Made by a program: the position numbers and the translations under genes. Source: a virus (lineage: Duplodnaviria; Heunggongvirae; Uroviricota; Caudoviricetes). Taken from it: DNA of 14,457 nucleotides. Within the stretch, counting starts at the first letter, position 1; every line of letters begins with the position of its first letter. The stretch lies in the IMG/VR virus record IMGVR_UViG_2537562191_000039, positions 1 through 14,457 of that record. One strand, given 5' to 3'. Of the stretch, positions 1-13,025 are shown piece by piece. Below the pieces are notes generated by a model. The model saw only the letters and a program-made list of their open reading frames with translations, made no database searches and had not been told where the DNA came from.

Positions 1-170
1 TGGCCACACTAACGTGGGTGGACTGGTATAACAATCGACGATTGCTGGGAAGGCTGGGCCATACTCCTCCGGCAGAAGCAGAAAAAGCTTATTATGCTTC
101 CATCGGAAACGATGATCTGGCAGCCTGAGTTCACAGATAAAACACTCTCCAGGAAACCCGGGGCGGTTCA
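1..170 (+). mobile_element. Right end of an insertion sequence (transposase 3' end plus terminal repeat); outer boundary approximate
   Basis: Transposase stop at 126-128 is followed by about 40 nt before methyltransferase-coding sequence resumes in another frame. The end is placed provisionally at the CA dinucleotide at 169-170. The left end and any target-site duplication lie outside the window, so the boundary is unverified. Confidence 0.45.
3..128 (+). CDS. DDE transposase/integrase (rve-type, IS3-family-like), C-terminal fragment; 5' end is off-window
   Basis: Frame 3 is open from nt 3 to TGA at 126-128 and translates to ATLTWVDWYNNRRLLGRLGHTPPAEAEKAYYASIGNDDLAA*. The W..WYN..R....G..TP.E.E pattern matches the conserved C-terminal end of rve-type transposase catalytic domains. 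Not in the ORF track because the start is outside the window. Confidence 0.6.
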   Translation, partial: ATLTWVDWYNNRRLLGRLGHTPPAEAEKAYYASIGNDDLAA

Positions 171-181
171 AATCCCCTGAC

Positions 182-3100
182 GTGCTCGTCGGGGGAACAC
201 CATGTTTTACCGCGGGGCATATGGTTCTTTGTAAAAATGGCTATAAACCAATAGAAAATGTTTGCCCTGGTGATTACGTAGTCAGTCATCTCGGGCGGTT
301 ACAACAAGTAAAAAGAGTTGGTTCAAAAATAGCTAATACGGGGTTACTTAATGCCGTTGGGCAGCCTTTAGGTATAAGAACAACCAATGACCATCCCTTC
401 CTGGCTGTTCGGTGGAAAGCCCAAAACACCCGGAAAAATGGCACATATTTTAAGAGAGAGTTGTTGTCTGAACCGGAATGGCGAGCAGCATGTGATATGC
501 CGGGATATCAATGGTGCGCTCTAACTAATTTCAATATTGCATTTCCAGATATTTGTTCTCGGTTCTTGTCTGAAGAACAGGCTATGTATCTTGCGGGCGC
601 TTATGTTGGCGATGGATATATTAGGAGATGGAGAGGTAAATCTAAGAAGGCGGTTGTTTTTGGCATAAATTGCCAGAAATTGAGAAAGTTTCATTGCCGC
701 ATACCAGAAAACATATTTTCCGTGGCAAGCGAAATCCGAGGGAGCATCAAAGTAACCTTGAATGATACGTGTTATGCCAATTGGCTTAATGAACATTTTG
801 GCGAGTTAAGCCATGCTAAGCGTATCCCTGCATGGGTGATGTCGCATCCATTGCGTCATGTGTTTTTACAAGGCTATCTTGATACTGATGGGACACCAAG
901 TGGTAAAGCGGGATTTAGAATTAATAGTGTTAGTTCTGCGCTTGCTTGGGGCGTTGCGGGGTTGTCACAGACTTGTGGTTATGTTTCTTCGGTCAGCTTT
1001 ATTGAAGTTGAGCCCAAAAAAGTGATCGAGGATCGCGTGGTAAATCAACGGAATTATTATCAGGTAACAATCTGCCCGCAGAAATTGTCACGTAAATCAA
1101 GATTGGCTCATGGAATGCTTTTACGAACAGTCAAAGAGTTTAAATCGGTAGGCCTAGATACTGTATACAACATAGAAGTCGAAGGTGATCATTCCTATAT
1201 CCTCAATGGTGCGGTGGTCCATAACTGTCAGGCATTCAGTATCGCGGGATTACGTGGTGGGCTTGATGATGAGCGTGGCGCGCTAACTTTAAAGTATGTG
1301 GAGCTTGCAAATGCAATTGACGACAAACGGGCTGAGTCATTTCTCAAACCAGCCGTTATCGTCTGGGAAAATGTCCCAGGAGTCTTGTCATCGGCAGATA
1401 ACGCCTTCGGATGTTTCCTTGCCGGATTGGCTGGAGAAGATGCGCCATTTGAACCAGGTGATCGACCTGAATCAGGAAAAAGTAACACGTTCTGGCGGTG
1501 GGATGGCAAAACCGGTTGCCATGCTCCAAAGTGGCCGCAGTGTGGTTGTATTTATGGACCGCAGCGAAAAGTGGCCTGGAGAATCCTTGATGCCCAATAC
1601 TTCGGAGTGGCACAACGACGCCGACGCGTGTTTGTTGTCGCAAGTGCTCGAACAGACCTCGATCCCGCAACGGTACTTTTTGAGTTCGAAGGCGTGCGCC
1701 GGAATATTGCGCCGAGCCGAAAAAAGAAGGAAATCGCTTCCGCCATTATTGCAAATGGCGCTGCAATCAGTGGCGAAAGCCTAAATCCATGCCTACACGC
1801 TGACATGCCACCCGGTATGAAATCGACGAAAGCCGTAAACGCTTTCAGGATGGCAGCATTTGGGGAATATATTGACGATGAAACCGCATCGACAGTAAAG
1901 GCAAGAGATTTTAAAGATGCCACTGACCTTGCCGTTTTTAGCAGCACAGGAGCAGGTTTTTGGTCAGAAGGGCATGGTACATTGCGGGCACGTGAGCAAG
2001 AAAGCCATGAGCATCTTGTTACATTGGCTTTTCCTGAGCGTATGAGCGGTACACAACATGCTGCAACTAAGAATACTTCACCATCTCTAATGGCTAAAAA
2101 TCCAACAGCTGTTTGCTATGAAGTAAGAAACGCAGAAGTAGCTGTCCGCCGTCTTACCCCTGTCGAATGTGAAAGGCTGCAAGGTTTTCCTGAGGGGCAT
2201 ACGTTGATCCCGACGGAAAAGCGTAAAAAAGTTTCTTCAGATGAACTGGCATACCTTCGCAATCACTATCCAGATTTAAGCGAAGAAGAGGCCGCGATGC
2301 TTGCAGCTGACGGACCGCGTTACAAAGCGATCGGCAACAGCATGGCAGTTCCTGTTATGCAATGGATAGGGTGTCGCATTCTTGCGACCGTAGCGGATAA
2401 ACAGCAAAAAACAATAAATACCATTACCTACACAAGAAAACTCCGGACTCCGGATGAATATGAACGCCCAATATTCAAATGGGTAGGCGGTAAATTCTCA
2501 GAGTTGCCTACAGTGCTTGAGCATCTACCACACGGCAAGCGGTTAATAGAACCATTCGTTGGTGGCGGTTCCGTATTTACGAATGCAGGATTTCGCCACA
2601 ACCTGCTTAATGATATTAACGGTGACCTGATTAACTTCTATCAGACATTGCAGCGAGAGGGACATTCGCTCGTCACGCTGGCATATAGTTTTTTCAAAAA
2701 TTACAACAACGCTGACGCTTACCTCGAAGTGCGTGAGGCATTTAACAGAGGAAAGTATGACCAACTACATCATGCTGCTGCCTTTTTGTACCTTAATCGG
2801 CACTGTTTTAATGGCGTAACGCGGTACAACCAAAATGGCGAGTTCAACGTAGGGTATGGCAAATACAAAGCGCCCTACTTCCCACATGCAGAGATGGAGG
2901 CATTTTTGGCTGATGACGTACTCAAAAACACTTCCTTTGTATCAGGTGACTTTGCTAGCGTCATTGAGGCGGCTGGTGAAGACGATGTGATTTTTTGTGA
3001 TCCGCCGTATGAACCGCTTCCGGATACAGAGGGATTTACCAGCTATTCAGGAAATAGCTTCCGTTTCGACGAACAGAAACGGCTTGTATCACTGTTGGTG

Positions 3101-3274
3101 GATGCCCACCAGCGCGGCGCTAAGGTAGTGATAACAAATAGTGGTGCTCCAAACATCCGTGAACTATATGAAGGAAACGGGTTTAAAGTACATCATATGG
3201 CAGCCAGACGGTCGGTTTCCTGCAAGGCGTCAACACGTGTAGTTGCTAACGATATAATTGCAATAATGAAGTAA
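182..3274 (+). CDS. Fused DNA methyltransferase: C5-cytosine MTase domain (motifs IV-X only, intein-interrupted) plus Dam-like N6-adenine MTase domain; 5'-truncated by the IS
   Basis: ORF-track protein of 1030 aa. C5-MTase motifs appear in canonical order: motif IV split by the intein (SPDVLVGGTP|CQAFSIAGLRGG), motif VI VIVWENVPGV (ENV at nt 1367-1375), motif VIII YFGVAQRRRRVFVVA, motif IX RRLTPVECERLQGFPEGH, motif X AIGNSMAVPV. The last ~290 aa carry Dam-family motifs: KWVGGK, EPFVGGGSV (nt 2555-2572), FLYLNR, EFNVGYGKYK, FCDPPY (nt 2999-3010). No motifs I-III are present. Reading upstream in frame hits TGA at 113-115 inside the IS end, so the GTG at 182 (no Shine-Dalgarno) is probably not the ancestral start. 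Confidence 0.85.
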   Translation: MLVGGTPCFTAGHMVLCKNGYKPIENVCPGDYVVSHLGRLQQVKRVGSKIANTGLLNAVGQPLGIRTTNDHPFLAVRWKAQNTRKNGTYFKRELLSEPEWRAACDMPGYQWCALTNFNIAFPDICSRFLSEEQAMYLAGAYVGDGYIRRWRGKSKKAVVFGINCQKLRKFHCRIPENIFSVASEIRGSIKVTLNDTCYANWLNEHFGELSHAKRIPAWVMSHPLRHVFLQGYLDTDGTPSGKAGFRINSVSSALAWGVAGLSQTCGYVSSVSFIEVEPKKVIEDRVVNQRNYYQVTICPQKLSRKSRLAHGMLLRTVKEFKSVGLDTVYNIEVEGDHSYILNGAVVHNCQAFSIAGLRGGLDDERGALTLKYVELANAIDDKRAESFLKPAVIVWENVPGVLSSADNAFGCFLAGLAGEDAPFEPGDRPESGKSNTFWRWDGKTGCHAPKWPQCGCIYGPQRKVAWRILDAQYFGVAQRRRRVFVVASARTDLDPATVLFEFEGVRRNIAPSRKKKEIASAIIANGAAISGESLNPCLHADMPPGMKSTKAVNAFRMAAFGEYIDDETASTVKARDFKDATDLAVFSSTGAGFWSEGHGTLRAREQESHEHLVTLAFPERMSGTQHAATKNTSPSLMAKNPTAVCYEVRNAEVAVRRLTPVECERLQGFPEGHTLIPTEKRKKVSSDELAYLRNHYPDLSEEEAAMLAADGPRYKAIGNSMAVPVMQWIGCRILATVADKQQKTINTITYTRKLRTPDEYERPIFKWVGGKFSELPTVLEHLPHGKRLIEPFVGGGSVFTNAGFRHNLLNDINGDLINFYQTLQREGHSLVTLAYSFFKNYNNADAYLEVREAFNRGKYDQLHHAAAFLYLNRHCFNGVTRYNQNGEFNVGYGKYKAPYFPHAEMEAFLADDVLKNTSFVSGDFASVIEAAGEDDVIFCDPPYEPLPDTEGFTSYSGNSFRFDEQKRLVSLLVDAHQRGAKVVITNSGAPNIRELYEGNGFKVHHMAARRSVSCKASTRVVANDIIAIMK
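203..1225 (+). other. Intein (Hint splicing domain with LAGLIDADG homing-endonuclease insert), 341 aa, inserted at the catalytic Cys of the C5-MTase PCQ motif
   Basis: Begins with Cys (TGT 203-205) directly after GGTP, with an N-terminal block CFTAGHMVLCKNGYKPIENVCPGDYVV. Block B is TNDHPF. Two LAGLIDADG-type motifs, LAGAYVGDGY (nt 590-616) and FLQGYLDTDG (nt ~866-892), each retain the Asp. Block F is VYNIEVEGDHSY. Ends ILNGAVVHN (AAC 1223-1225) followed by +1 Cys (TGT 1226-1228). Removing it joins GGTP to CQAFSIAG, restoring GG.PCQ.FS.AG. Confidence 0.8.
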
Positions 3275-3304: not shown

Positions 3305-3322
3305 CATGTGGCGAAATACCTA

Positions 3323-4984
3323 TTAACCTAACTTCGCCCAGGTATCACGCAGCCCAACGGTGCGGTTAAATACCGGTTTTTCCGCCGTAGAATGGCGGCT
3401 GTCGAGGCAGAAATAACCTTCACGCTCAAACTGGAATGCTTTACCCGCTACCGCTTCTTTCAGCGACGGTTCAGCAAAGCCCTGTTTGATCACCAGCGAT
3501 TCCGGGTTAATCACCGACAGGAAATCATCCGCAGCACCTGGGTTCGGCACGTTGAACAGACGATCGTACAGGCGGATTTCAACCGGCAGCGCATGTGCCG
3601 CGCTCACCCAGTGAATAACGCCTTTCACTTTACGACCATCTGCCGGATCTTTGCTTAAGGTGTCGGCGTCATAAGTACAGAAGATGGTGGTGATATTGCC
3701 TTCGGCATCTTTCTCCACGCGTTCAGCCTTAATGACGTAAGCATTACGCAGACGCACTTCTTTACCCAGCACCAGACGTTTGTACTGCTTGTTAGCTTCT
3801 TCGCGGAAATCGGCGCGGTCGATCCAAATCTCACCGCTAAACGGCACCTGACGGCTACCCATTTCCGGTTTGTTTGGATGGTTCGGCATGGTGACCATTT
3901 CGCCTTCGCCCTGGTAGTTTTCGATAACCAGTTTCACCGGATCGATAACCGCCATTGCGCGCGGGGCATTTTCGTTGAGATCTTCACGGATGCAGGATTC
4001 CAGCGACGCCATCTCAATGGTGTTGTCCTGCTTGGTCACGCCGATGCGTTTGCAGAACTCACGAATAGAAGCCGCAGTGTAACCACGACGACGCAGACCG
4101 GAAATGGTCGGCATACGCGGGTCATCCCAGCCTTCAACGTGCTTGTCGGTCACCAGCAGGTTCAGCTTACGCTTGGACATCACGGTGTATTCCAGATTCA
4201 GGCGCGAGAATTCGTACTGGCGCGGATGAACAGGAATGGTGATGTTGTCCAGTACCCAGTCATACAGACGACGGTTGTCCTGGAACTCAAGCGTACACAG
4301 AGAGTGCGTAATACCTTCCAGCGCATCGCTGATGCAGTGGGTGAAGTCGTACATCGGGTAGATGCACCACTTGTTGCCAGTCTGGTGGTGTTCAGCAAAC
4401 TTAATACGGTACAGCACCGGGTCGCGCATCACGATAAACGGCGAAGCCATGTCGATTTTCGCACGCAGGCAGGCTTTACCTTCTTCAAAACCACCGGCAC
4501 GCATTTTTTCGAACAGCGCCAGGTTCTCTTCAACGCTGCGGTCGCGGTACGGGCTGTTTTTACCCGGCTGCGTCAGGGTGCCGCGGTATTCGCGGATCTG
4601 TTCCGGCGTCAGTTCGTCAACATACGCCAGGCCTTTGTTGATCAGTTCAACAGCATAGGCATGGAGTTTGTCAAAATAATCGGAGGAGTAACGGATGTTG
4701 CCAGACCAGTGAAAACCTAACCATTCAACGTCGTTTTTAATCGACTCAACGTACTCGATATCTTCTTTTACTGGGTTAGTGTCGTCGAAACGCAGGTTGC
4801 ACTGGCCTTTATAGTCCTGGGCGATCCCGAAGTTCAGGCAGATAGATTTCGCATGACCAATATGCAGATAGCCATTCGGTTCCGGCGGGAAACGGGTATG
4901 TACTGTGGTGTGCTTACCACTGGCCAGATCTTCATCGATGATCTGACGAATAAAGTTAGTCGGGCGGGCTTCTGCCTCACTCAT
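3323..4984 (-). CDS. glnS: Glutamine--tRNA ligase (glutaminyl-tRNA synthetase)
   Basis: 553-aa product begins [48 protein letters not shown], with the class I HIGH motif and a VMSKR (KMSKS-type) motif. Full length and near-identical to E. coli GlnRS as I recall it. The flanks are not the chromosomal nagE/chiP neighbours. Confidence 0.97.
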
Positions 4985-5173
4985 TGTGGATTCCTCAAAG
5001 CGTAAACAACGTATAACAGCGTATGATCTTATAAGCCGAATAGGCTGACAACCACTAGTTGATTAGAAATTGCTTTCTATCGTTATTTCAATAATGAGCT
5101 TTTTCATGAAGCCCACTTTTGCGCATAAGTAAATTAATGATAAATGGCACACAATTGGAACCAAAAAGGATGT

Positions 5174-5211
5174 AAAGGTGCACCAAATTAGTGGTGTATT
5201 GGTACACCTTT
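5174..5211. promoter_or_regulatory. Imperfect palindrome downstream of the ParA/RHH operon; candidate protein-binding site or weak terminator
   Basis: Arms AAAGGTGCACC (5174-5184) and GGTACACCTTT (5201-5211) pair at 10 of 11 positions across a 16-bp spacer. No clean U-tract follows on the minus strand. Confidence 0.35.
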
Positions 5212-5252
5212 GGTTCAAGACTTTTTAAGTTCTAAAACCAACCTGAAAGACT

Positions 5253-5540
5253 TTATTTTGCTTCCTCAGACTCCGCTAACATGAGGATAGCATGGCGGAT
5301 CATATTCAATTTGCTGCGATTATGCTTTTTACTTAACGCATCAAGTACTTGGTACTCGTATTCATTGAAACCAACACGAATAGATTTAAAATCACGTGGA
5401 GCGTCCTTATCGAGCACTTTGTTGTCTTCTGGTTGCTCACCCGGCACCAAATCAGCCTTACTGGCAAAATCCTCAATTCGGCGTTCAAGATCGGGGTCTT
5501 TTACTTCGGGGGCTTTTACCGATTTACGAGGCTTAATCAC
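5253..5540 (-). CDS. ParG-like ribbon-helix-helix centromere-binding partner of ParA
   Basis: 95 aa. C-terminal RHH pattern: strand KSIRVGFNEYEY, helix QVLDALSKK, helix KLNMIRHAILMLAE, after a charged flexible N-terminus. GTG start overlaps the parA stop by 8 nt, with AAGGAG just upstream (translational coupling). Confidence 0.55.
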   Translation of the reverse strand: MIKPRKSVKAPEVKDPDLERRIEDFASKADLVPGEQPEDNKVLDKDAPRDFKSIRVGFNEYEYQVLDALSKKHNRSKLNMIRHAILMLAESEEAK

Positions 5541-6174
5541 TTAATAACTCCTTAACCAACATCTGGATTTCACCTTTAGCTTTCCCGTTGTCCATCTCAA
5601 CAACGCCCTTCCCTTCAGCCATGCAATCGCGGTAAACCTTACGATCACGAATGATGGTTTTCAGCAACTTCAGTTGCGGATATTCAGCTAGGTACTCTTT
5701 GGCCTCATTGGTTTCATTCACAACCGGATTGGATGGGGCCATTGTTAAGACTGCGAACGCCTTAATGCTAGGATTAGGCATCAGGTCCAAAGCCTCTTCA
5801 AACACTTCAACAAAGTGTGCCAGCGTGTCTAAATCTGGTTGAGATGGTCTGAATGGGACCAACACAATATCTGCAGCGGTTATGCCTGTACGCATCTCTT
5901 TGCTATCGCGCCCGGCTGTATCAACAACTACAAATTCATAACGCTTATCCAGATCGAGAAGTGTTTCTCGAATATTACCAAACTTCTGGACACAATGAAT
6001 TACAGGAGAAACCTCTGCCGTGTTACGGTCAGCTGCCCAGCGGGCAGCTGTTCCTTGCTTGTCTGCATCTAGTAACACTACATCCTTATTTGCGCGGGCA
6101 AGCTCCGCACAGATGTTTACGCTTGTGGTTGATTTTCCACAGCCACCTTTTTGGCTGACTACCAATATAATCAT
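5533..6174 (-). CDS. parA: ParA-family partition ATPase (small, type Ib-like)
   Basis: Deviant Walker A near the N-terminus, MIILVVSQKGGCGKSTTSVN, then LLDADKQG and VVVDTAGR motifs typical of ParA/MinD ATPases. Start placed at the internal ATG 6174, which has GAGGAA 5 nt upstream, rather than the ORF-track start at 6204. Confidence 0.85.
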   Translation of the reverse strand: MIILVVSQKGGCGKSTTSVNICAELARANKDVVLLDADKQGTAARWAADRNTAEVSPVIHCVQKFGNIRETLLDLDKRYEFVVVDTAGRDSKEMRTGITAADIVLVPFRPSQPDLDTLAHFVEVFEEALDLMPNPSIKAFAVLTMAPSNPVVNETNEAKEYLAEYPQLKLLKTIIRDRKVYRDCMAEGKGVVEMDNGKAKGEIQMLVKELLSD

Positions 6175-6418
6175 ATCCGTTCCTCGGTGTGATTTTGGTA
6201 TCAAAACGGTTCCAGATAAGAGCCTTTTTGATGCGGGACAGGCTCTATAATGGAGTCATGAATGTTTGGCAAAGTATAACATCAATCAGACCAAATACAC
6301 CTTATATTGCATCCTATTTAACACGAAATCAGCCCTAAATTGGAACCAGATACAAAATTGCACCATAACAGCACCTAACCGGTGCCAGATTAACACTAAT
6401 TAGACACCATTAAGGCAT

Positions 6419-6443
6419 AAAAAAGGCTGCAATTTGCAGCCTT
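6419..6443 (-). terminator. Rho-independent terminator of the parM-parR operon
   Basis: Perfect inverted repeat AAGGCTGCA / TGCAGCCTT (6423-6431 and 6435-6443) about 20 nt past the parR stop. On the minus strand it is followed by a run of six T (complement of the A-run at 6419-6424). Confidence 0.65.
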
Positions 6444-6461
6444 AAACCAGCACATCTTCTG

Positions 6462-6806
6462 TCAATCAGGTAGAGAGTCAGCCAGATTGCGCGCCGACGC
6501 GCTTTTGGCAACAACTTGCTCCTTCACTGGCTCAATGGAGGCAGGGCGCTCCTCAACCGCAGCTGGTAGTTCCAGGAAGGATGCCAGCATTTTTCGGATC
6601 AGCTCCGGGTTATTGTCTTCGGTCAGCAGGGAAGCCAGTAATCCTGGAAGCCTGCTATCGACTTCTCCCAGCGCAAGCCCTGCCAACAATGCGGTTCTTG
6701 CCATATCGCTATGTTTTTTTATCTTCTCGCTCGCCGCCTTTTCATTGGCATAAGCCTCTGGGCGAAGATAAATCATCACTTTCTTACGTTCCTGAGACAT
6801 GGACAT
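6462..6806 (-). CDS. parR: ParR-like centromere-binding adaptor of the type II (ParMRC) partition system
   Basis: 114 aa. N-terminal KKVMIYLRPE and central ARTALLAGLALGEVDSRLPGLLASLLTE resemble plasmid R1 ParR/StbB as I recall it. Sits directly downstream of parM with GAGG 4 nt before its ATG. Confidence 0.75.
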   Translation of the reverse strand: MSMSQERKKVMIYLRPEAYANEKAASEKIKKHSDMARTALLAGLALGEVDSRLPGLLASLLTEDNNPELIRKMLASFLELPAAVEERPASIEPVKEQVVAKSASARNLADSLPD

Positions 6807-6813
6807 TACCTCG

Positions 6814-7770
6814 TTAACCGATTGCTTTCAGGCCATGAACAAGAGCAAGTTGCGGGTCATCCGCCACGAAGAAACGGTCATCACGAATATTAACTTGCTC
6901 GCGAATTGCATCTGCCACCAGCGGTGCGCCACCACCGATCACCATGACATGCGTATATCCTTTAAAGTCGCCAATCACATCAAGAACTCGGGTACGCAGA
7001 CGGTCAATGCTTGCGGCAATGGCCTTTTTCACATCACCAATCGCTGATGGGTCATTGATATTGTCGTTCAGATAATCTTCATCGTGGCGGTTAATAATGA
7101 GCTGATCAACATTGTAATTTGACGTTTCGGTATTGGCCCTTGCAAGTGCTTGCCTTACTTCCCTGGTGACCAGTGATACACCAAGATTCGAATCGCCAAA
7201 AACACGGGAAACTGCCGTCATTTGCCCAGCGACCATTGAAACATCAAGGGTAGTTCCACCCAAATCGACGATAAGAACAGAATGGACAGGGTTCAGATTG
7301 TCGCACAGGCCAATTCCTGCCGGAATAGACTCCGGTCGTACCGTAACTTTCTTAATCGTGAACACATTGCCTTTATTCAGCGTGACGGGGCGCATAAGGC
7401 TGGCTTTCTTGCGCTCGATGTTATCGAGATTGTATTGCGCGTCGTCGTCGTAAAACTCCGCCAGAGGCAGCGTGACCACAATTTCTACTTCCTGCGGCTC
7501 AATACCGCTTGTCAGCAGGGCATGGTGAACAGCCAGGACGTTAAGCGGGCTGTATTGCCATTCCACGTTATTCGTCGGCAGAACATCTGGCGAGATCAAA
7601 TCATACGAATACTTCTCGTCGTCAATGACATAGTTAAACGGCTTGCCAGCACCAAATGTTGCTGACCATCCGCGCTTAAAGCTGTTAGGACTGATGTGAG
7701 TGCGAGTTTCCCCGTCGTGCTCCCACAGCATTTTGATATTGGTTGAACCATCATCGATAAAAATGCGCAT
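6814..7770 (-). CDS. parM: ParM/StbA actin-like plasmid segregation ATPase
   Basis: MRIFIDDGSTNIK (phosphate 1), LIVDLGGTTLDVS (phosphate 2) and HVMVIGGGA (adenosine) motifs; colinear with R1 ParM as recalled over the whole length. Start placed at the internal ATG 7770, which has GGAG 7 nt upstream; the ORF-track start at 7794 is a GTG eight codons further up. Confidence 0.9.
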   Translation of the reverse strand: MRIFIDDGSTNIKMLWEHDGETRTHISPNSFKRGWSATFGAGKPFNYVIDDEKYSYDLISPDVLPTNNVEWQYSPLNVLAVHHALLTSGIEPQEVEIVVTLPLAEFYDDDAQYNLDNIERKKASLMRPVTLNKGNVFTIKKVTVRPESIPAGIGLCDNLNPVHSVLIVDLGGTTLDVSMVAGQMTAVSRVFGDSNLGVSLVTREVRQALARANTETSNYNVDQLIINRHDEDYLNDNINDPSAIGDVKKAIAASIDRLRTRVLDVIGDFKGYTHVMVIGGGAPLVADAIREQVNIRDDRFFVADDPQLALVHGLKAIG

Positions 7771-7796
7771 CTTCTTGCTCCACTTCTGAGACACAT

Positions 7797-7951
7797 TTGA
7801 GAATCAAAATGTAATTTTAAAAGAGAAGCACCCAAAAATCCACACCAAACGAGACAAAAAAGAGCGCTTGTTGAGTTTATTTTGAGAATATCTTAATCAC
7901 CCACTGAATGATGGCCTGATAGTGAGATTTATTTGAGAATGAATTGAGAAT
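7797..7951. repeat. Iteron cluster (parC-like centromere/operator) in the parM upstream region
   Basis: Exact TTGAGAAT copies at 7797-7804, 7882-7889, 7933-7940 and 7944-7951, plus degenerate copies TTGAGTTT (7871-7878) and GTGAGATT (7922-7929). All lie between the divergent parM and PAAR genes. Confidence 0.55.
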
Positions 7952-8036
7952 ACAAAAATATTCCGAAATTTAACTCTCCGTTTGAATGACGAAATAACAA
8001 AGTGATGACAATAGGAGGATAACCAGGAGGTGAAGA

Positions 8037-8321
8037 ATGAGCGCAATAGCCACCAGCGACACCCTTTGTTCTGGTCACGGAGGATTTCCGCCGCGACTGG
8101 TAGCTGAAACCGTTCCCTGGTTCACCGTTAACGGTAAGCCAGTTGTTGTAGATGGTGCCATGTTTCCCAGTCACACTGACGGTAACAGTGCACACCCAGG
8201 GGCAGCTGTATCGACGCGAGTATGGTTTTCGATAGGTGGAAAGGGAGTTGTCTGTGTAGGCGATCCGCTTTCTTGTGGTTCTGTTATCGCCAACGGCGAG
8301 GATATTTTTCAGGTTGCATAA
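8037..8321 (+). CDS. PAAR-domain protein (spike-tip type, as in phage gp5.4 or T6SS PAAR)
   Basis: 94 aa with three PAAR-like segments and conserved metal ligands: DTLCSGHGGFPP, VNGKPVVVDGAM...HTDGNSAHPG, IGGKGVVCVGDPLSCGSVIANG. Strong RBS AGGAGG at 8025-8030, 6 nt before ATG 8037. Confidence 0.7.
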   Translation: MSAIATSDTLCSGHGGFPPRLVAETVPWFTVNGKPVVVDGAMFPSHTDGNSAHPGAAVSTRVWFSIGGKGVVCVGDPLSCGSVIANGEDIFQVA

Positions 8322-9124
8322 TGCTTGATTCAATAGGTGAAGTTAAAGCCTTCAAAATTCTGTCAGATGCCGGTATCTCTACACCAGAATCTATAACCAT
8401 AAGCCGGGCAGCTTCTGTAAAAGCCTCATCACTCGCCAGCGCCATACAGGGAATAGTTCACGCCGATAAAACCTATCCTGATTCTGTTTCGGCCTGGACT
8501 ACTCAATTGCTTGGCTTTTCTGAACAGCTCAATGAGGCCAGCAAAGCGTCTTCATTACTGGCTGATTCTCTTTCCCCATACACCAAGCCATCAGAGCTGT
8601 TACAGATGAAGATTGGCTGGGAATGCTACGCAAAAGGTAACGAGCTGACCCCCATACCTGCTTTCGCCCTTGTTGAGGGAATGGGGAATGTTTCCATTCC
8701 GCAATCTCTAACGGACGCATTGACGGCGCTAAAACTTGATGCTCTGAAAACCGCCATGAACGCCATTAACGCAAAAATTGAAGCTGCCGGAAGTGCTGGT
8801 GGTGATAGCAATGGTGGGCAGGGTGGTACTGGGGGCGCTCAGGCTCCAGTCATTACTCAGGATGAAATTGATGCTTTACGGGAAGCAGTGACAGCCGCCG
8901 AAGTTTTACTCTCCGAAATTAACTCAGCAAGTGAGAGTGTCGTAGCCCTTGCAGGTCGCATTAAAACGTCAACCACTCAGGCAACCAAAGGTTTAGAGAA
9001 CGCTGTCGCCATCACGTTAACTGGTTCTCTACTGGATGATGCAGTAATGAGTCCGGCAATCAGTTTAATCATACCACAAGGCGTTATCGACGCGCTCCAA
9101 ACGAACACCAAAAAGGAACCATAG
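8321..9124 (+). CDS. Hypothetical protein, Ala/Ser/Leu-rich with a central Gly-rich linker; function unknown
   Basis: ATG at 8321 overlaps the PAAR stop (TAATG). 267 aa from MLDSIGEVKAF. Internal low-complexity linker AGSAGGDSNGGQGGTGGAQAP. No transmembrane segment or catalytic motif recognised. The ORF-track N-terminal extension from 8222 overlaps the PAAR gene and is rejected. Confidence 0.55.
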   Translation: MLDSIGEVKAFKILSDAGISTPESITISRAASVKASSLASAIQGIVHADKTYPDSVSAWTTQLLGFSEQLNEASKASSLLADSLSPYTKPSELLQMKIGWECYAKGNELTPIPAFALVEGMGNVSIPQSLTDALTALKLDALKTAMNAINAKIEAAGSAGGDSNGGQGGTGGAQAPVITQDEIDALREAVTAAEVLLSEINSASESVVALAGRIKTSTTQATKGLENAVAITLTGSLLDDAVMSPAISLIIPQGVIDALQTNTKKEP

Positions 9125-9163
9125 CAACACCACTTAGGAACACAAAAGGATATAAATTGGTAC

Positions 9164-9655
9164 ATGTTTAACACCAAAAAAATGAACCTGAAGAGGATGG
9201 TTTTGAAAAAGATAATTTTGATTGTAATTGCGCTTTTAGCCATTTCTGGAATTTACCGAACAACGACGGCAGTTATCGAACACATCAGGTATGTCCGATC
9301 GCTTGAAGACTCAAAATCACAACTGGAAAGCACGAACAACACGCTTTCTACCGCATTACAGTTAAGTGAGAACGCTCGCTCAGCCATGCTGACCGAAAAC
9401 GAAAGAATTAAAGCACTGGAAAAGGAGTACCAGCGCAAAACAGCAGAACTGAATGCCAACCTAATCAAACAACGAGAGGAAAGCCAGAATGAAATCACTC
9501 GCCTTGAAAATGCGTTACGCCGTGCTGGGATTAACGATGTGCGTGTGCCTGATGACGTTATCAGGATGCAGCGGGAACGGGCAAAAGCCATCAACCAGCG
9601 TGCCAGTGAAAATTACCGTAGAAGCCACCAGCAAGCCGCAGGCAAATCTGATTGA
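9164..9655 (+). CDS. Putative i-spanin (Rz-like inner-membrane spanin subunit)
   Basis: 163 aa. N-terminal basic region then a hydrophobic segment IILIVIALLAISGIY (type II membrane anchor), followed by a charged, heptad-rich periplasmic region. The o-spanin gene is embedded in its 3' part in another frame. Confidence 0.6.
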   Translation: MFNTKKMNLKRMVLKKIILIVIALLAISGIYRTTTAVIEHIRYVRSLEDSKSQLESTNNTLSTALQLSENARSAMLTENERIKALEKEYQRKTAELNANLIKQREESQNEITRLENALRRAGINDVRVPDDVIRMQRERAKAINQRASENYRRSHQQAAGKSD

Positions 9656-9821
9656 TTACTCCCCTTGTTTAGTGCCAGAGGACACGCCAGTGCTGTTAAA
9701 CAAGTATCCGACATACGCTGAACAGTTATTCAGCACGATCGACGAATGCAACCAACGAAACGCACTGAATAACCAAAGAAACAGGGAGATTTGGGAAGGG
9801 AAGGGGGATCAAGGCTCCTGA
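9489..9821 (+). CDS. Putative o-spanin (Rz1-like outer-membrane lipoprotein)
   Basis: Signal peptide with lipobox (MKSLALKMRYAVLGLTMCVCLMTLSG|C) and a Pro/Cys-containing mature region. Starts inside the i-spanin gene in a different frame and extends 166 nt past its stop. GAGGA lies 8 nt upstream of ATG 9489; ATG 9510 is an alternative start. Confidence 0.6.
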   Translation: MKSLALKMRYAVLGLTMCVCLMTLSGCSGNGQKPSTSVPVKITVEATSKPQANLIDYSPCLVPEDTPVLLNKYPTYAEQLFSTIDECNQRNALNNQRNREIWEGKGDQGS

Positions 9822-10267
9822 AGCCAGATGTCCTGGCTGTCAGCTTCTTCGAAACCGTGACAGACGTTAAAGTCACTCAAGCGATACTGACGCTGACGGC
9901 CTCTATTTCGCTCATGCCAATGCATGTATCCACCAGCAAATGCCAGCGGACAATCACTATAGTCTATGTAACCAATACCATTCCCCAAACGTGCTTCGCG
10001 CGCACCGGCTTTCCAGGACAGTAGAAAAGAGTCACGATCCGCCAGCATAACAACAAAATCGTCCGGATCTCCGATACAGTGAAGAATACCTGCCTTACAT
10101 AACTGCTTGAGCGCTTTTGACTGGCTCAGGATGTCTTCTCCGTAATACTGAAAACAATCATCAACAACAGCGGGATAGCCTGCCGGGGGATTCAGGCTGG
10201 TTGGTATAGCTGACGCGATCGCCAGCATTAAGCGATATTGTGTTTTTGATGGGTTAACGTGACTCAT
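9809..10267 (-). CDS. Hypothetical protein (152 aa), second gene of a two-gene minus-strand operon
   Basis: ORF-track 152 aa beginning MSHVNPSKTQYRLMLAIASAIP. AAGGGA sits 5 nt upstream of the ATG. No recognisable domain. Its 3' end overlaps the convergent o-spanin gene by 13 nt. Confidence 0.55.
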   Translation of the reverse strand: MSHVNPSKTQYRLMLAIASAIPTSLNPPAGYPAVVDDCFQYYGEDILSQSKALKQLCKAGILHCIGDPDDFVVMLADRDSFLLSWKAGAREARLGNGIGYIDYSDCPLAFAGGYMHWHERNRGRQRQYRLSDFNVCHGFEEADSQDIWLQEP

Positions 10268-10283
10268 TTTGTCCCTTGTTTAC

Positions 10284-10676
10284 TCATTGTCGCCATGCAT
10301 TTTTTAACTCAGGAATATCTGCCATTTCAATTAACTTGCGAAGTCCAGCACTGACTTTCCCATTGCCAACCATAGCAAGCCAATCTCTTACAGCTTTCGG
10401 CATGTAGAGCGTTGCAGTTACCGGCTCTTCAACCCTGGCAGGACATCCGCATACAGGCCATTTAATTGATTCCATAACTTCGGATGCCGGGGTGAGGGCG
10501 GGGACATTGAGTATATCTCTACCAGAAAACTGGATAACGATCCGTTCAGCGAGCGAGAGTATCTCACTTTCGGCAAGAATTGATGCCAACTGCGCCTCAA
10601 CAAGAAAGCGACTTGTTGTGTTCAGAGAGTGGCTCTTAGCGCCATTTTTATACGAAACAAAGATTCGATACGCCAT
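10284..10676 (-). CDS. Hypothetical protein (130 aa) with C-terminal ribbon-helix-helix-like DNA-binding region
   Basis: C-terminus TATLYMPKAVRDWLAMVGNGKVSAGLRKLIEMA fits a strand-helix-loop-helix RHH pattern (Arc/MetJ-like). The N-terminal ~80 aa are unrecognised. First gene of the operon, 16 nt upstream of the 152-aa gene. Confidence 0.55.
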   Translation of the reverse strand: MAYRIFVSYKNGAKSHSLNTTSRFLVEAQLASILAESEILSLAERIVIQFSGRDILNVPALTPASEVMESIKWPVCGCPARVEEPVTATLYMPKAVRDWLAMVGNGKVSAGLRKLIEMADIPELKNAWRQ

Positions 10677-10834
10677 AACTCTAATGATTTGTGTTAGAAA
10701 ACTAAAATTAAATCACATAACAACATGCGTGTTAATAGATTTTATTTTACTAAACCTATTGACTAAATCACAAAGTAGGTATTGTTAGCCCGTCAAAAGA
10801 ACCTTCACGCCGCGCCCGAATTTAGGGCTTAACC

Positions 10835-12532
10835 GTGAATAAAAACATTCAGCCAGCTCGTGATCGCGAGCGCGAGATTATGAATCGGGCGGCAAGCGTC
10901 ATGGCTATGACCGTCGATCCGACCACCGATGCAGCAGGCAACATGATTGCTGACCAGGCAGTAATGATGGAAAACCTGGATAAAGCAATCCAGAAAGTGC
11001 CTATGTTTGAAGGCGTAAATCCAGAGGTCGCTCGTCAGATCACTGGTGGGTGGGCTATGTCTCTGCATGAGTATAAACGTCAACATGGTCATTACCCGGC
11101 AAGTGACATCCTGGCGAACGCACACATGGCTCTTGAACGCCTGATGACTGAATGTGCCAGTGATACCCATGAAGGCACGGGTAAGGCAATGTTTGAGTCT
11201 GTCGCGCAATCAATGCGTAGCTCTGACGGCGTAATGAAAGTTGCTCAATATGCTGCTCTAATTCTGCCTGCCTCTCTGGGCGCTGCTACCAGTGATGCCT
11301 GTACTTTTGTTCCTTGTGATCGTGACGAGTCAAATATTTATGAACTGGTCAACGTAGCAGGCACAAAATTCGGCACCTTCAAACAAGGTGACGAACTGAA
11401 TATGCAGTCAGCTGGTGTTTATTCTCAAATGAAGCGCCTGTATACCCTTTCCACTAAAGGGGATGGCAGCACCAAAACCTTCCAGTTCGACATCCAAAAT
11501 TTTGAGGGACAATCCTGCCCGCTTCGCGCTGGTTATAACAAACTGCTGATCAACCGCAAACCGTCCAAAGTTGACGACGGCGATGGCAACCTTTATTTCA
11601 ATGCTAAAGACAGCAAAGGTAATGCTTTCTCAGCGACTGCCAAAGTTGCCTATGACACTGGTGTCATTGACATTACATTTACCCAGGCTCCGCCAGAAGG
11701 TACTGAAATTGCTGTTCAGGTCGAAATTAACATCGAGCGCAATCCAAGCCTGATTCCTGTGATCAACCAGGCTATGCGTAAGTACGAAGTTCGTCCGTCC
11801 CAGTACGTAATTGCTTCCGAACACACGGTAATGTCCGCATCCGATTTAAGCCGTGAGCACGGCCTTGAATTAGCGGCACTTCAGTTCTCCGCGATGCGTA
11901 ACTGGATCTCCCATGAAACTGACATCATGCGTCTGCGCACCCTGGTATTCCATACCGTTTATGGCCGTGAATTTGATGTGGCTCTGCCGGAAGCTCAAAA
12001 CTATGAGTCCTGGGTCGGCCTCCTGCGTCACGTAGTAAACGCTCTGTCTCAGGAAATGGCAAATCGTACCCTGACAACGGGTATTCGTGGCGGCTTTGCT
12101 GGTGGTGACGCCGCGAACTTCCTGCGCTCTCTGCCTCCACAGCACTTCCAGATCGCACCAGGTTACGTTCAGTCGCCGTATGTACAGTACATCGGCACCC
12201 TGTTTGGCACGATTCGTATTTACGAAGTGCCGCAACCTGTCTGTGAGCAATTCCAGGCACAGGGATATGACTTCGGGCTGGATGACATCTTCTTCTATGG
12301 GCGTGGCGAAGGCATCGGTAAAGCCGGTCTGATTGCTGGTGATGCAGTCCCTGCAATCCCTTACGTGCACGAAACCAATCCGTCTCTCGTTAACCGTACC
12401 ACTCTCTGGGGCAGTGCCATCAACGAAGTACATCCTCGCAACGGTGAAAACTACTTCACTCGCCTGCGTCTGACTCGTGCCAAAGAAGGCGCTATCGACA
12501 TGCTGACAGGCAAGGTTAACGAAAAAAAGTGA
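10835..12532 (+). CDS. Putative major capsid protein (large phage head protein); exact family not established
   Basis: 565-aa ORF with GTG start (an in-frame ATG at 10880 is an alternative). It is followed by an Ig-like decoration-type gene and ends in an A_AAA_AAG slippery heptamer. The C-terminal region loosely recalls T4 gp23-type capsid proteins, but this is from memory only. The gene is certainly real; the product call is tentative. Confidence 0.5.
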   Translation: MNKNIQPARDREREIMNRAASVMAMTVDPTTDAAGNMIADQAVMMENLDKAIQKVPMFEGVNPEVARQITGGWAMSLHEYKRQHGHYPASDILANAHMALERLMTECASDTHEGTGKAMFESVAQSMRSSDGVMKVAQYAALILPASLGAATSDACTFVPCDRDESNIYELVNVAGTKFGTFKQGDELNMQSAGVYSQMKRLYTLSTKGDGSTKTFQFDIQNFEGQSCPLRAGYNKLLINRKPSKVDDGDGNLYFNAKDSKGNAFSATAKVAYDTGVIDITFTQAPPEGTEIAVQVEINIERNPSLIPVINQAMRKYEVRPSQYVIASEHTVMSASDLSREHGLELAALQFSAMRNWISHETDIMRLRTLVFHTVYGREFDVALPEAQNYESWVGLLRHVVNALSQEMANRTLTTGIRGGFAGGDAANFLRSLPPQHFQIAPGYVQSPYVQYIGTLFGTIRIYEVPQPVCEQFQAQGYDFGLDDIFFYGRGEGIGKAGLIAGDAVPAIPYVHETNPSLVNRTTLWGSAINEVHPRNGENYFTRLRLTRAKEGAIDMLTGKVNEKK

Positions 12533-12645
12533 TGGTGGCGAACGTGTCGGTATCACCAACGTCACTTGACGTAGATGAAGGTGAAACTATCGCCGCGAAC
12601 ACTTCAAAGGCACAGAAAAAAACAAAGCAGAAGTAAGGCAAAAAC

Positions 12646-12666
12646 ACGCCCCTGAATAAGGGGCGT
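12646..12666 (+). other. RNA hairpin between the capsid gene and the Ig-like gene (not a canonical terminator)
   Basis: Stem ACGCCCC (12646-12652) / GGGGCGT (12660-12666) with a 7-nt loop. No U-tract follows; it is followed directly by AGGAG (12669-12673) and ATG 12680. Confidence 0.35.
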
Positions 12667-12679
12667 TCAGGAGAAAAGA

Positions 12680-12958
12680 ATGGCAAACATTCAAGTAACT
12701 ATCTCGCCATCTGACGCAACAGACAAATCTTTCACTGTTGAGTCCGATCACCCTGAAATTGTCCAGGTTGATGGCACTACATGTACCGCTCTTAAGGCCG
12801 GGCAGGCAGTGCTGACAATCAAAACAAATGACGGCAATAAAACCGCACAGTGCACAGTCACTGTTAGGGAGGCACCTAAAAGCGTAAGCGCCGTCAGTGT
12901 TGAACCAACTACGAAAGAAGTAACCGTAGGCGACAACTTCACGGTAAGCGAATCCTGA
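12680..12958 (+). CDS. Ig-like (Big_2-type) domain protein, probable head decoration or accessory protein
   Basis: 92 aa. VTISPSDATDKSFTVESDHPEIVQVDGTTCTALKAGQAVLTIKTNDGNKTAQCTVTV fits the bacterial Ig-like group 2 pattern. RBS AGGAG is 6 nt upstream. The C-terminal VSAVSVEPTTKEVTVGDNFTV looks like the start of a second, truncated Ig-like domain. Confidence 0.65.
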   Translation: MANIQVTISPSDATDKSFTVESDHPEIVQVDGTTCTALKAGQAVLTIKTNDGNKTAQCTVTVREAPKSVSAVSVEPTTKEVTVGDNFTVSES

Positions 12959-12962
12959 TCAG

Positions 12963-12989
12963 AGGCTGCCCATTAACCGTGGGTAGCCT
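12963..12989 (+). other. RNA hairpin downstream of the Ig-like gene; possible weak terminator or attenuator
   Basis: 10-bp stem AGGCTGCCCA (12963-12972) / TGGGTAGCCT (12980-12989) with one G-U pair and a 7-nt loop, followed by a pyrimidine-rich rather than clean U tract. Confidence 0.3.
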
Positions 12990-13025
12990 TGCCTCGTTCT
13001 CTCGCTTTAGAGGATAAGAACCAGC

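What the first reader, a model, noticed from the sequence alone, without database searches (positions are those of the whole stretch)
203..1225. Apparently splicing-competent LAGLIDADG intein inserted on the catalytic cysteine of a C5-cytosine methyltransferase
The 341-aa insert has every hallmark of a class 1 intein: Cys1, block B TNDHPF, two LAGLIDADG motifs that keep their Asp residues, block F, and terminal HN followed by +1 Cys. It sits exactly between GGTP and CQAFS, so the +1 nucleophile is the catalytic Cys of the PCQ motif. Excising it would regenerate a textbook motif IV. I am not aware of inteins being commonly described in DNA methyltransferases, and inteins are uncommon in enterobacterial mobile elements. 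The insert also looks AT-richer than the flanking extein by eye (not computed), suggesting separate acquisition.
Basis: partly seen in the sequence, partly recalled or inferred. Interest (0 to 1): 0.8.

Follow-up and report, generated by a model that had tools for sequence, protein, structure and literature searches.

The report
Homing intein in phage-plasmid DNA methylase
This is a genuine self-splicing protein insert (an intein with a homing nuclease) on the catalytic cysteine of a P1-type phage-plasmid DNA methyltransferase; it is an ordinary example of a known kind, occurs in about 3% of complete E. coli genomes, and in this copy sits in a gene already broken by an insertion sequence.

Summary
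Window 203-1225 encodes a 341-aa class-1 intein with a LAGLIDADG homing-endonuclease domain. It is inserted in frame between GGTP and CQAFS, so its +1 Cys is the catalytic Cys of motif IV. Intein-free alleles differ by exactly these 1023 bases.

- The host gene is dmt, the C5-cytosine/Dam fusion methyltransferase of P1- and D6-type phage-plasmids.
- In this contig an IS1203 element ends 32 nt upstream of the intein. The 5' part of the gene lies on another contig of the same draft genome, so no working C5 enzyme can be regenerated here.
- The intein is not rare. Near-identical copies occur in 152 of 5426 complete E. coli genomes. Homologous inteins occupy the same PC|Q site in methylases of Mannheimia, Propionibacterium and jumbo coliphages. 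C-5 methylases are already listed as intein hosts.

The intein and its 5' flank are P1-type, while everything downstream of the gene's C5 part (shared by both types) matches an intein-free D6-type plasmid 100%. This could be a real recombinant or a chimeric draft contig, and I could not tell which.

Verdict: a real, canonical, new member of a known kind, of modest interest.

The parts
1..170 (+). Right end of an IS1203 (IS3-family) element: C-terminus of transposase OrfB (frame 3, stop at 125-127) and the right inverted repeat ending ...GGGGCGGTTCA at 170. The contig starts inside the IS.
   Evidence: Frame-3 translation reads ...WVDWYNNRRLLGRLGHTPPAEAEKAYYASIGNDDLAA*. Window 1-172 is identical to the annotated IS1203 of p7_55_62A-3, and the inverted repeat matches that IS's left end.
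171..202 (+). All that remains of the N-extein of dmt: 32 nt encoding (E)SPDVLVGGTP, the start of motif IV. It carries the markers of intein-bearing P1-type alleles (C at -22, A at -1).
   Evidence: There is an exact 32-nt match to pO111_2 dmt and none to the D6-type allele.
203..1225 (+). The intein: 341 aa, class 1, with a LAGLIDADG homing-endonuclease domain inserted in the Hint fold. Features are Cys1 (203-205), block B TTNDHPF (380-400), LAGLIDADG 1 (584-619, Asp137), LAGLIDADG 2 (863-895, Asp229), blocks F/G (1160-1225) and His340-Asn341 (1220-1225).
   Evidence: The DNA is 1023/1023 identical to the intein of pO111_2 and p7_55_62A-3.
1226..1228 (+). The Cys+1 codon. It is the splice-junction nucleophile and also the catalytic cysteine of C5-methyltransferase motif IV (PCQ).
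   Evidence: The intein-free alleles read GGTPCQAFS. The alignment to M.HhaI pairs ...GGTPCQAFSIAG with ...AGFPCQAFSISG.
1226..2473 (+). C-extein, C5-cytosine methyltransferase part: the rest of motif IV (CQAFS 1226-1240), ENVPG (1367-1381), QRRRRVF (1613-1633), a target-recognition region, RRLTPVECERLQGFP (2147-2191) and GNSMAVPV (2333-2356).
   Evidence: Pfam DNA_methylase scores 1e-21, and the motif positions come. It is 100% identical to pE2863-2. It is 99.5% identical to the O111:H8 P1-type allele through +1112.
2474..3274 (+). C-extein, Dam-type N6-adenine methyltransferase domain (FKWVGGK 2474-2494, DPPY 2999-3010), with the stop codon at 3272-3274. This part is D6-type and only ~65% identical to P1-type alleles.
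   Evidence: Pfam MethyltransfD12 scores 7e-56, and TIGR00571 dam scores 1e-73 on the intein-free allele.
3323..14457 (.). Backbone of a phage D6-like phage-plasmid: glnS, ParA-like and ParM/StbA partition genes, a PAAR protein, the capsid gene and the start of the tail sheath gene. This is context, not part of the intein.
   Evidence: It is 98.5% identical to phage D6 MF356679 and 100% identical to pE2863-2.

Best explanation
Window 203-1225 is a canonical class-1 intein carrying a LAGLIDADG homing endonuclease. It sits at the PC|Q site (motif IV) of the C5-cytosine methyltransferase domain of Dmt, the C5/Dam fusion methyltransferase of P1-like phage-plasmids.

Inferred mechanism in an intact gene:
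1. The precursor is translated with the catalytic cysteine masked, because that cysteine is the +1 residue.
2. Cys1 undergoes an N-S acyl shift, assisted by block B Thr61/His64.
3. Cys+1 attacks the resulting thioester.
4. Asn341 cyclises, assisted by His340, and releases the intein.
5. An S-N shift restores GGTP-CQAFS, giving an active methylase plus a free 39-kDa endonuclease.
6. The endonuclease would cut intein-less dmt alleles at ...GGAACACCT|TGTCAGGC.... Repair from the intein-bearing allele then copies the intein in.

In this particular contig the host gene is dead as a C5 enzyme. IS1203 inserted 32 nt upstream of the intein with a 3-bp AAT duplication, and the 5' 202 nt of the gene lie on another contig of the same draft genome (E. 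coli 4.0522). At best, read-through from the IS and initiation at GTG 182 could give a 7-residue N-extein precursor.

Shown: the intein's anatomy, its exact insertion site, its allelic distribution, the IS disruption and the P1-type origin of the intein and its 5' flank. Inferred: splicing, endonuclease activity and homing.
For: Intein identity:
- Pfam LAGLIDADG_3 and Hint_2 match, and TIGR01443 scores above its cut-off.
- The AlphaFold2 model has pLDDT 91.6, with top Foldseek matches to PI-SceI (3e-17), TliVMA and PI-PfuI.
- C1, T61, H64, D137/G138, N341 and C+1 are invariant or nearly invariant across ten homologues, all inserted at the same GGxP|C...HN|CQ site of PF00145 proteins.

Clean insertion:
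- pE2863-2 dmt (762 aa) reads GGTPCQAFS and has a C-extein identical to the window's.
- M.HhaI's PCQ cysteine aligns to Cys+1.

Mobility signature:
- About 153 interrupted against 337 uninterrupted dmt alleles occur in complete E. coli genomes.
- Every intein copy examined has an open frame, with pN/pS of 0.24-0.57.
- Intein divergence (0.5-1.3%) is below flank divergence (1.1-4.6%) in all 10 allele pairs.
- The synonymous -1 base is A in the window and all five other intein-bearing alleles examined, and T in all 6 intein-free alleles.

IS disruption:
- Window 1-170 equals the IS1203 right end.
- I predicted a 76-aa left-junction product (P1-type N-extein + AAT + IS1203 left end). It exists exactly as EIH78378.1 of E. 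coli 4.0522, whereas the D6-type versions do not.
- The window is contig AEZU02000060.1 and its protein is EIH77818.1.
Against: - No experiment shows splicing or DNA cleavage for this intein or any close relative that I could find.
- The -1 residue is proline. From my own knowledge of engineered intein systems, that hinders the first acyl shift. The proline is conserved in all homologues, so the family presumably tolerates it.
- The Pfam Intein_splicing score is below its cut-off and Hint_2 is borderline.
- pN/pS rests on only 5-13 substitutions per pair.
- Lower intein divergence could also arise from recombination mosaicism in the exteins.
- No promoter-like site lies in 1-1300, so expression of this copy is doubtful.
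- That EIH78378.1 comes from the same genome as the window is inferred from the accession series and the exact junction match. I did not read it from the assembly.
Confidence: 0.9

Rival explanations
1. The join between the P1-type intein region and the D6-type backbone is an assembly chimera. Strain 4.0522 would carry a P1-type plasmid (dmt::IS1203, intein+) and a separate D6-type plasmid with an intact intein-free dmt. The draft assembler then walked from one to the other through the ~1.1-kb stretch they share.
For: - The window is a 14.5-kb contig of a draft assembly that begins inside a repeat.
- The IS left junction carries a wholly P1-type N-extein.
- The C-extein differs from the O111:H8 P1-type allele at only 5 of the first 1112 nt, which is an easily collapsed repeat.
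- No record among 5426 complete E. coli genomes or PLSDB has an intein joined to a D6-type backbone.
- None of 83 D6-type plasmids in complete genomes carries the intein.
- The hypothetical full-length D6-type intein+ protein is absent from the 15-billion-protein collection, while the intein-free form is seen on 142 contigs.
- O111:H8 strain 99.1145 carries both plasmid types.
Against: - All five distinguishing SNPs (+218 to +432) are D6-type, with no mixed consensus.
- The other contig end is not at a P1/D6-shared repeat, so this assembler does not obviously mis-join.
- I could not inspect reads or the other contigs.
Confidence: 0.45
2. The join is real but comes from ordinary homologous recombination: a single crossover or cointegrate between co-resident P1-type and D6-type plasmids within the 99.5%-identical C5 region. 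The endonuclease would play no part.
For: - The sequence is P1-type on the whole 5' side, including the IS and N-extein.
- It is D6-type from at most +218 onwards, with 13.2 kb 100% identical to pE2863-2.
- A long near-identical stretch is available for RecA-mediated exchange.
- dmt alleles are visibly mosaic. For example, the C5 domain is replaced in p99_1145-4 and pO111_2 has a different recognition region.
Against: No such hybrid occurs among about 490 dmt-bearing complete records. This scenario cannot be separated from the chimera or from long-tract conversion using the window alone.
Confidence: 0.3
3. The contig records a recent endonuclease-driven homing event from a P1-type dmt into a D6-type dmt, with co-conversion of the 5' flank.
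For: - The intein and its adjacent 32 nt are 100% donor-type (pO111_2-like), while downstream is 100% recipient-type with an intein-free twin, pE2863-2.
- The -1 A marker travels with the intein in every allele examined.
- The intein has evidently entered several extein haplotypes.
Against: The 5' donor tract would have to cover the entire N-extein (at least 231 nt, including the divergent start) and pre-date the IS insertion, while the 3' tract is under 218 nt. D6-type+intein has not been seen anywhere else.
Confidence: 0.15
4. The endonuclease domain is a relic. The intein still splices because it must, but no longer homes, and its patchy distribution reflects plasmid lineage sorting and general recombination.
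For: - Only one of 492 dmt-bearing genomes has two dmt records, and that one looks like the same element present twice. There is therefore no direct evidence of conversion in co-residence.
- Relatives show decay: P0019 is a mini-intein without the endonuclease domain, and P0009 has Asn in place of the second catalytic Asp.
Against: - Both catalytic Asp residues and both LAGLIDADG helices are intact and modelled with high confidence.
- All 153 E. coli copies are full length at >=95% identity.
- pN/pS is below 1, and the intein is less diverged than its flanks.
Confidence: 0.3
5. The 341-aa segment is a native domain of this methyltransferase family rather than an insertion.
For: None beyond its being in frame.
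Against: 337 uninterrupted alleles lack exactly this segment and read PCQ. The fold is that of PI-SceI-type inteins.
Confidence: 0.01

Closest known systems
PI-SceI (Sce VMA1 intein) and the TliVMA/PhoVMA and PI-PfuI inteins (solved structures)
   Same: They share the two-part architecture: a Hint splicing fold interrupted by a two-motif LAGLIDADG endonuclease domain, with Cys1, block B TxxH, a terminal HN and Cys+1. They are the top structural matches.
   Different: Sequence identity is only 10-17%. The present intein is shorter (341 against 360-540 aa) and shows no obvious extra DNA-recognition region. Its host proteins are unrelated to theirs (V-ATPase, ribonucleotide reductase). Its activity is untested.
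Inteins at the same PC|Q site of C5 methyltransferases in Mannheimia phage vB_MhS_587AP2, Propionibacterium phage B22, jumbo coliphages (ph0011, A4) and metagenomic proteins P0007-P0019
   Same: They have the same insertion point (GGxP|C...VHN|CQ), the same block pattern and 28-53% identity over the full length. These are allelic inteins of one family.
   Different: Their host methylases are stand-alone C5 enzymes, not C5/Dam fusions. Some are decayed: the Mannheimia gene is frameshifted just after the intein, and P0019 has lost the endonuclease domain.
Mycobacteriophage/actinophage DNA methylase inteins (Kelley et al. 2016, PMC5050341; PMC9957025; bioRxiv 10.1101/2025.01.02.630785)
   Same: They are LAGLIDADG inteins in phage DNA methylases, with patchy distribution and evidence of transfer between diverged methylases. 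Identity to the present intein is 27%. The 2025 survey lists both N-6/N-4 and C-5 methylases as intein hosts.
   Different: The published cluster E/F cases are in N6_N4 methylases at a different site (Doug...MHV|C...KN|CPLQFD). Their hosts are Actinobacteria, not enterobacterial phage-plasmids.
Dmt of phage P1 and relatives (RCS47, pO111_2) and of phage D6
   Same: The host gene lies in the same position (rdgC-dmt) and has the same C5 + Dam fusion architecture. RCS47 and pO111_2 carry the same intein.
   Different: In the window the gene is cut by IS1203, and its 3' half and neighbours are D6-type rather than P1-type.

Membership tests
Class 1 intein (Hint-fold protein-splicing element) | Nucleophilic first residue (Cys/Ser) directly after the N-extein | tested here: met
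   Cys1 is at 203-205 and is conserved in 9 of 9 homologues that cover the position.
Class 1 intein (Hint-fold protein-splicing element) | Block B TxxH motif | tested here: met
   T61-N-D-H64 lies at 383-394, and T61, H64 and P65 are nearly invariant.
Class 1 intein (Hint-fold protein-splicing element) | C-terminal blocks F/G ending in His-Asn, followed by a Cys/Ser/Thr +1 residue | tested here: met
   The sequence reads ...VYNIEVEGDHSYILNGAVVHN|C. TIGR01443 scores 25.9 bits against a 15.6 cut-off, and N341 is invariant.
Class 1 intein (Hint-fold protein-splicing element) | Hint fold | tested here: met
   The AlphaFold2 model has pLDDT 91.6, and Foldseek matches PI-SceI at 3e-17 and TliVMA at 6e-17. 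Pfam Hint_2 is borderline at 28.1-28.7 bits against 28.4.
Class 1 intein (Hint-fold protein-splicing element) | In-frame insertion at a conserved site of a host protein, with intein-free alleles that differ by exactly the insert | tested here: met
   pE2863-2 and five other alleles read GGTPCQAFS, and 337 uninterrupted alleles occur in complete E. coli genomes.
Class 1 intein (Hint-fold protein-splicing element) | Protein splicing actually occurs (ligated exteins plus free intein) | not testable with these tools
   This needs expression of an intact allele followed by western blot or mass spectrometry.
LAGLIDADG homing endonuclease (intein-encoded, PI-type) | Two LAGLIDADG helices, each ending in a catalytic acidic residue | tested here: met
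   YLAGAYVGD137G and LQGYLDTD229G are present, with helices 124-137 and 218-229 in the model. Pfam LAGLIDADG_3 scores 3e-8.
LAGLIDADG homing endonuclease (intein-encoded, PI-type) | Site-specific cleavage of the intein-less allele and homing | not testable with these tools
   Only indirect signs are available: patchy distribution, an intein less diverged than its flanks, and the -1 A marker linked to intein presence.
C5-cytosine DNA methyltransferase (host protein) | Complete set of motifs I-X in one polypeptide, including the AdoMet-binding motif I and the PCQ motif IV | tested here: not met
   In the window the N-terminal ~66 residues, including motif I, are missing because of IS1203. Intact alleles elsewhere meet this feature (TIGR00675 at 6e-34).
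Bacterial intein-like (BIL) / Hedgehog-type Hint domains (considered) | Hint domain without a homing endonuclease, usually lacking the canonical +1 nucleophile or terminal Asn, and located in variable regions of secreted or hypervariable proteins | tested here: not met
   An endonuclease domain, the terminal HN, Cys+1 and insertion in a catalytic motif are all present.

The most novel reading that the evidence does not exclude
Because the +1 splice nucleophile is the methylase's catalytic cysteine, the unspliced precursor could be a Dam-only enzyme, with C5 methylation appearing only after splicing. If splicing is conditional (for example a Cys1/Cys+1 redox trap, or slowed by the -1 proline), the intein would act as a post-translational timer of cytosine methylation in P1-type phage-plasmids. 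It would do this while still homing between phage-plasmid lineages in E. coli.
Probability: 0.07. Interest if true: 0.6.

Novelty: new member of a known kind. Interest (0 to 1): 0.3.

Why it matters
The intein is an ordinary example in mechanism and architecture, so its value is practical and ecological.
- E. coli, the usual 'intein-free' expression host, carries a native intein on P1-type phage-plasmids in about 3% of complete genomes.
- It adds a well-populated allelic series, with intein+ and intein-free alleles in otherwise near-identical replicons. That would make homing between phage-plasmids easy to test.
- It offers an uncharacterised LAGLIDADG enzyme whose target is the conserved PCQ-coding sequence.
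- It is a natural case of an intein working with proline at -1.

For annotation, these genes are currently named only 'Dam family methyltransferase', and the intein and the C5 domain go unmentioned. For this window specifically, the copy is stranded in an IS-disrupted gene, and the contig may be chimeric.

Tried and rejected
1. I first read the data as a clean homing snapshot: the intein is 100% P1-type and the rest 100% identical to intein-free pE2863-2. I downgraded this for three reasons. The IS left-junction protein proved that the whole N-extein is P1-type. The shared stretch downstream turned out to be ~1.1 kb rather than 217 nt. The window is a draft contig.
2. An exact look-up of the hypothetical full-length D6-type intein+ protein (1103 aa) found nothing.
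4. Strain 06-00048 is the only genome with two dmt records. I checked it as a possible co-residence test. Both copies are the same P1-type element, one with frameshifts, so it is uninformative.
5. I checked whether the far contig end lies in a P1/D6-shared repeat. It does not, so this says nothing about assembler behaviour.
6. Literature searches for this specific intein (terms intein/LAGLIDADG with dmt, P1-like, phage-plasmid, cytosine methyltransferase, Dcm/PF00145, catalytic cysteine) found no description of it. The P1 genome paper is not in the library.
7. A sequence-only PDB search gave just a weak C-terminal match to the Spl DnaX mini-intein, so a fold search was needed.
8. A 25-mer I took to be D6-specific for a collection scan turned out to be present in P1-type alleles. 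I dropped the scan.
Full report
**What is in the sequence.** The long + strand ORF 182-3274 contains, at 203-1225, a 341-codon segment flanked by GGTP and CQAFS. The segment has these features:
- Cys1
- block B TTNDHPF
- two LAGLIDADG motifs that keep their Asp residues: MYLAGAYVGD137GY and FLQGYLDTD229GT
- blocks F/G ending VVHN
- Cys+1

Profile matches are as follows. Pfam gives LAGLIDADG_3 at 3e-8. Hint_2 scores 28.1-28.7 bits against a 28.4 cut-off. Intein_splicing is sub-threshold. NCBIfam TIGR01443 (intein C-terminal region) passes its cut-off.

An AlphaFold2 model built on ten homologues has mean pLDDT 91.6. Its best matches among solved structures are PI-SceI (E 3e-17), the TliVMA intein, PI-PfuI and PI-TkoII, followed by free-standing LAGLIDADG enzymes. 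The composition remark also holds but is modest: 42.7% GC against 47.9% for the C-extein.

**It is an insertion, on the catalytic cysteine.** The closest relative of the rest of the window is plasmid pE2863-2, which is 100% identical over window 1226-14457. Its copy of the gene is 762 codons long and lacks the segment. It reads ...DVLVGGTPCQAFSIAG..., and its C-extein is identical to the window's at every base. Aligning that intein-free protein to M.HhaI puts GGTPCQAFS on AGFPCQAFS. By established knowledge, the cysteine of that motif IV is the catalytic nucleophile.

**What the host gene is.** The protein is a fusion of a C5-cytosine methyltransferase (PF00145/TIGR00675) and a Dam-type N6-adenine methyltransferase (PF02086/TIGR00571). 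It lies after rdgC in P1-type phage-plasmids such as pO111_2 and phage RCS47, where it is annotated dmt. The same position holds in D6-type phage-plasmids, where glnS follows. Window 3300-14457 is 98.5% identical to phage D6.

- Bases 1-170 are the right end of an IS1203 element. They include the OrfB C-terminus and an inverted repeat ending at 170, and they are identical to an annotated IS1203.
- Only 32 nt of N-extein remain. Intact alleles have 231-240 nt, which include motif I.
- The window is the whole of contig AEZU02000060.1 of a draft E. coli assembly, and its protein is EIH77818.1.
- I predicted what the other IS junction should encode for P1-type and D6-type N-exteins, each with a 3- or 4-bp duplication.
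- Exactly one prediction exists in the protein collection: the pO111_2-type N-extein + AAT + IS1203 left end. It is EIH78378.1 of E. coli 4.0522, on a 9-kb contig.

IS1203 is therefore a simple insertion into a P1-type, intein-bearing dmt. No promoter-like site lies in 1-1300. This copy cannot regenerate a working C5 methylase. At most, read-through from the IS and a start at GTG 182 would give a precursor with a 7-residue N-extein.

**How common it is.**
- The intein DNA occurs at >=95% identity and full length in 153 records from 152 of 5426 complete E. coli genomes, almost all of them ~90-100-kb plasmids. It is also in phages RCS47 and vB_EcoM-Ro157c2YLVW.
- The dmt 5' region is uninterrupted in 337 records and split at the intein site in about 153.
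- Homologues at 28-53% identity are almost all embedded in PF00145 proteins. Every homologue I examined, apart from one in mycobacteriophage Doug, sits at the same GGxP|C...HN|CQ site. These include Mannheimia phage 587AP2, Propionibacterium phage B22, jumbo coliphage ph0011 and several metagenomic proteins. One (P0019) is a mini-intein without the endonuclease domain.
- The related intein in mycobacteriophage Doug is in a different methylase at a different site.

In the literature, inteins in phage N6/N4 methylases are described (PMC5050341, PMC9957025). A 2025 survey lists C-5 DNA methylase among previously reported intein hosts. I found no paper on this particular P1-type dmt intein. Annotation pipelines label fragments of it 'Hint domain-containing protein' or 'LAGLIDADG family homing endonuclease'.

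**Signs of mobility (indirect).**
- All intein copies examined are open, with pN/pS of 0.24-0.57, though from few substitutions.
- In all ten pairs of intein-bearing alleles, the intein (0.5-1.3% divergence) is less diverged than 721 nt of flanking extein (1.1-4.6%).
- The intein sits on at least two P1-type backbones (672 and 754 aa without the intein) and on two different N-flank haplotypes.
- The synonymous base at -1 is A in the window and every other intein-bearing allele examined, and T in all six intein-free alleles of both plasmid types.

These signs fit a homing element that is active or was active recently. They do not prove it.

**The odd junction in this contig.**
- The intein and its 32-nt 5' flank are 100% identical to the O111 P1-type plasmids, and the N-extein beyond the IS is P1-type too.
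- From the C-extein onward the window is 100% identical to D6-type pE2863-2.
- Against an O111:H8 P1-type allele, the C-extein differs at only five positions (+218 to +432) in its first 1112 nt, all of them D6-type in the window. It falls to ~65% identity in the Dam domain.
- The switch from P1-type to D6-type therefore lies just after the intein, inside a 1.1-kb near-identical stretch.
- No complete genome or PLSDB plasmid shows this combination. None of 83 D6-type plasmids carries the intein. The hypothetical intact D6-type intein+ protein is absent from the protein collection, while the intein-free one is seen on 142 contigs.

Three readings remain. I rate a chimeric draft contig at about 0.45, a real single crossover or cointegrate at about 0.3, and endonuclease-driven conversion with a long 5' tract at about 0.15. 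Reads or a closed assembly of strain 4.0522 would settle it. None of the three changes what the intein is.

**Mechanism (inferred from the family).** In an intact gene the precursor has its catalytic cysteine tied up as the +1 residue. Splicing should follow the standard class-1 route: the Cys1 N-S shift, attack by Cys+1, Asn341 cyclisation and the S-N shift. This restores PCQ and frees a 39-kDa LAGLIDADG enzyme that should recognise the intein-less PC|Q-coding sequence. The -1 residue is proline in all family members. From my own knowledge, that is unfavourable in engineered systems, so it is worth testing.

**Verdict.** This is a real, canonical intein and a new member of a known kind. It is common in P1-type phage-plasmids and belongs to an allelic family spread across phages of several phyla. 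In this window it is stranded in an IS-disrupted gene on a possibly chimeric contig. Interest is modest (0.3).

Noticed in passing
window 1-170, and a separate contig of the same assembly (protein EIH78378.1): IS1203 inserted in dmt 32 nt upstream of the intein with a 3-bp AAT duplication. The predicted 76-aa left-junction product exists exactly in E. coli 4.0522, so the two halves of the broken gene lie on different contigs.
   Followed up: yes
window 1226-2337 compared with L003 (NZ_CP077509.1) and L001 (NC_013370.1): The C5 domain of the D6-type allele is 99.5% identical to the 754-aa P1-type allele for 1112 nt, then drops to ~65% in the Dam domain. pO111_2 has a quite different recognition region (7-31% identity over C-extein nt 501-900). 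dmt is strongly mosaic between phage-plasmid lineages.
   Followed up: partly
L004 (NZ_CP077485.1) 2627-4175: In the D6-type plasmid of O111:H8 strain 99.1145, which also carries an intein+ P1-type plasmid, the C5 domain is replaced by an unrelated 651-nt ORF. Only a 5'-truncated Dam gene remains, so the intein's target site is absent.
   Followed up: no
window 3323-4984 (- strand): A full-length glutaminyl-tRNA synthetase gene (553 aa) lies directly downstream of dmt on the D6-type phage-plasmid. It is also annotated in phage D6.
   Followed up: no
window 200-205, and all homologues in alignment A1: The residue before the intein is proline (GGTP|C, or FP|C, VP|C, SP|C in relatives). From my own knowledge, that is a -1 residue regarded as unfavourable for the first splicing step in engineered inteins.
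   Followed up: no
L013 (Mannheimia phage vB_MhS_587AP2) 1264-3100: The homologous intein (48% identity) is followed by CQSDKGG...* and then separately annotated methylase fragments. That host gene is therefore frameshifted just after the intein.
   Followed up: partly
protein P0019 (306 aa): This is a mini-intein of about 120 aa at the same PC|Q site. It keeps the splicing blocks but has lost the whole LAGLIDADG domain.
   Followed up: partly
L015 and L016 (E. coli 06-00048 plasmid and chromosome records): The same P1-type region with the intein appears in both the plasmid and the chromosome record of one assembly. The plasmid copy has frameshifts, and there PGAP names the intein part 'LAGLIDADG family homing endonuclease'. 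This may be an integrated second copy or an assembly duplication.
   Followed up: partly
window 8037-8321 and 5533-7770: A PAAR-motif protein gene lies next to the ParM/StbA and ParA-like partition genes on the D6-type backbone.
   Followed up: no
window 149-180 (- strand): A terminator-like hairpin (12 pairs followed by a T-run) spans the IS1203 inverted repeat and the dmt junction. It is probably a chance consequence of the IS end sequence.
   Followed up: no
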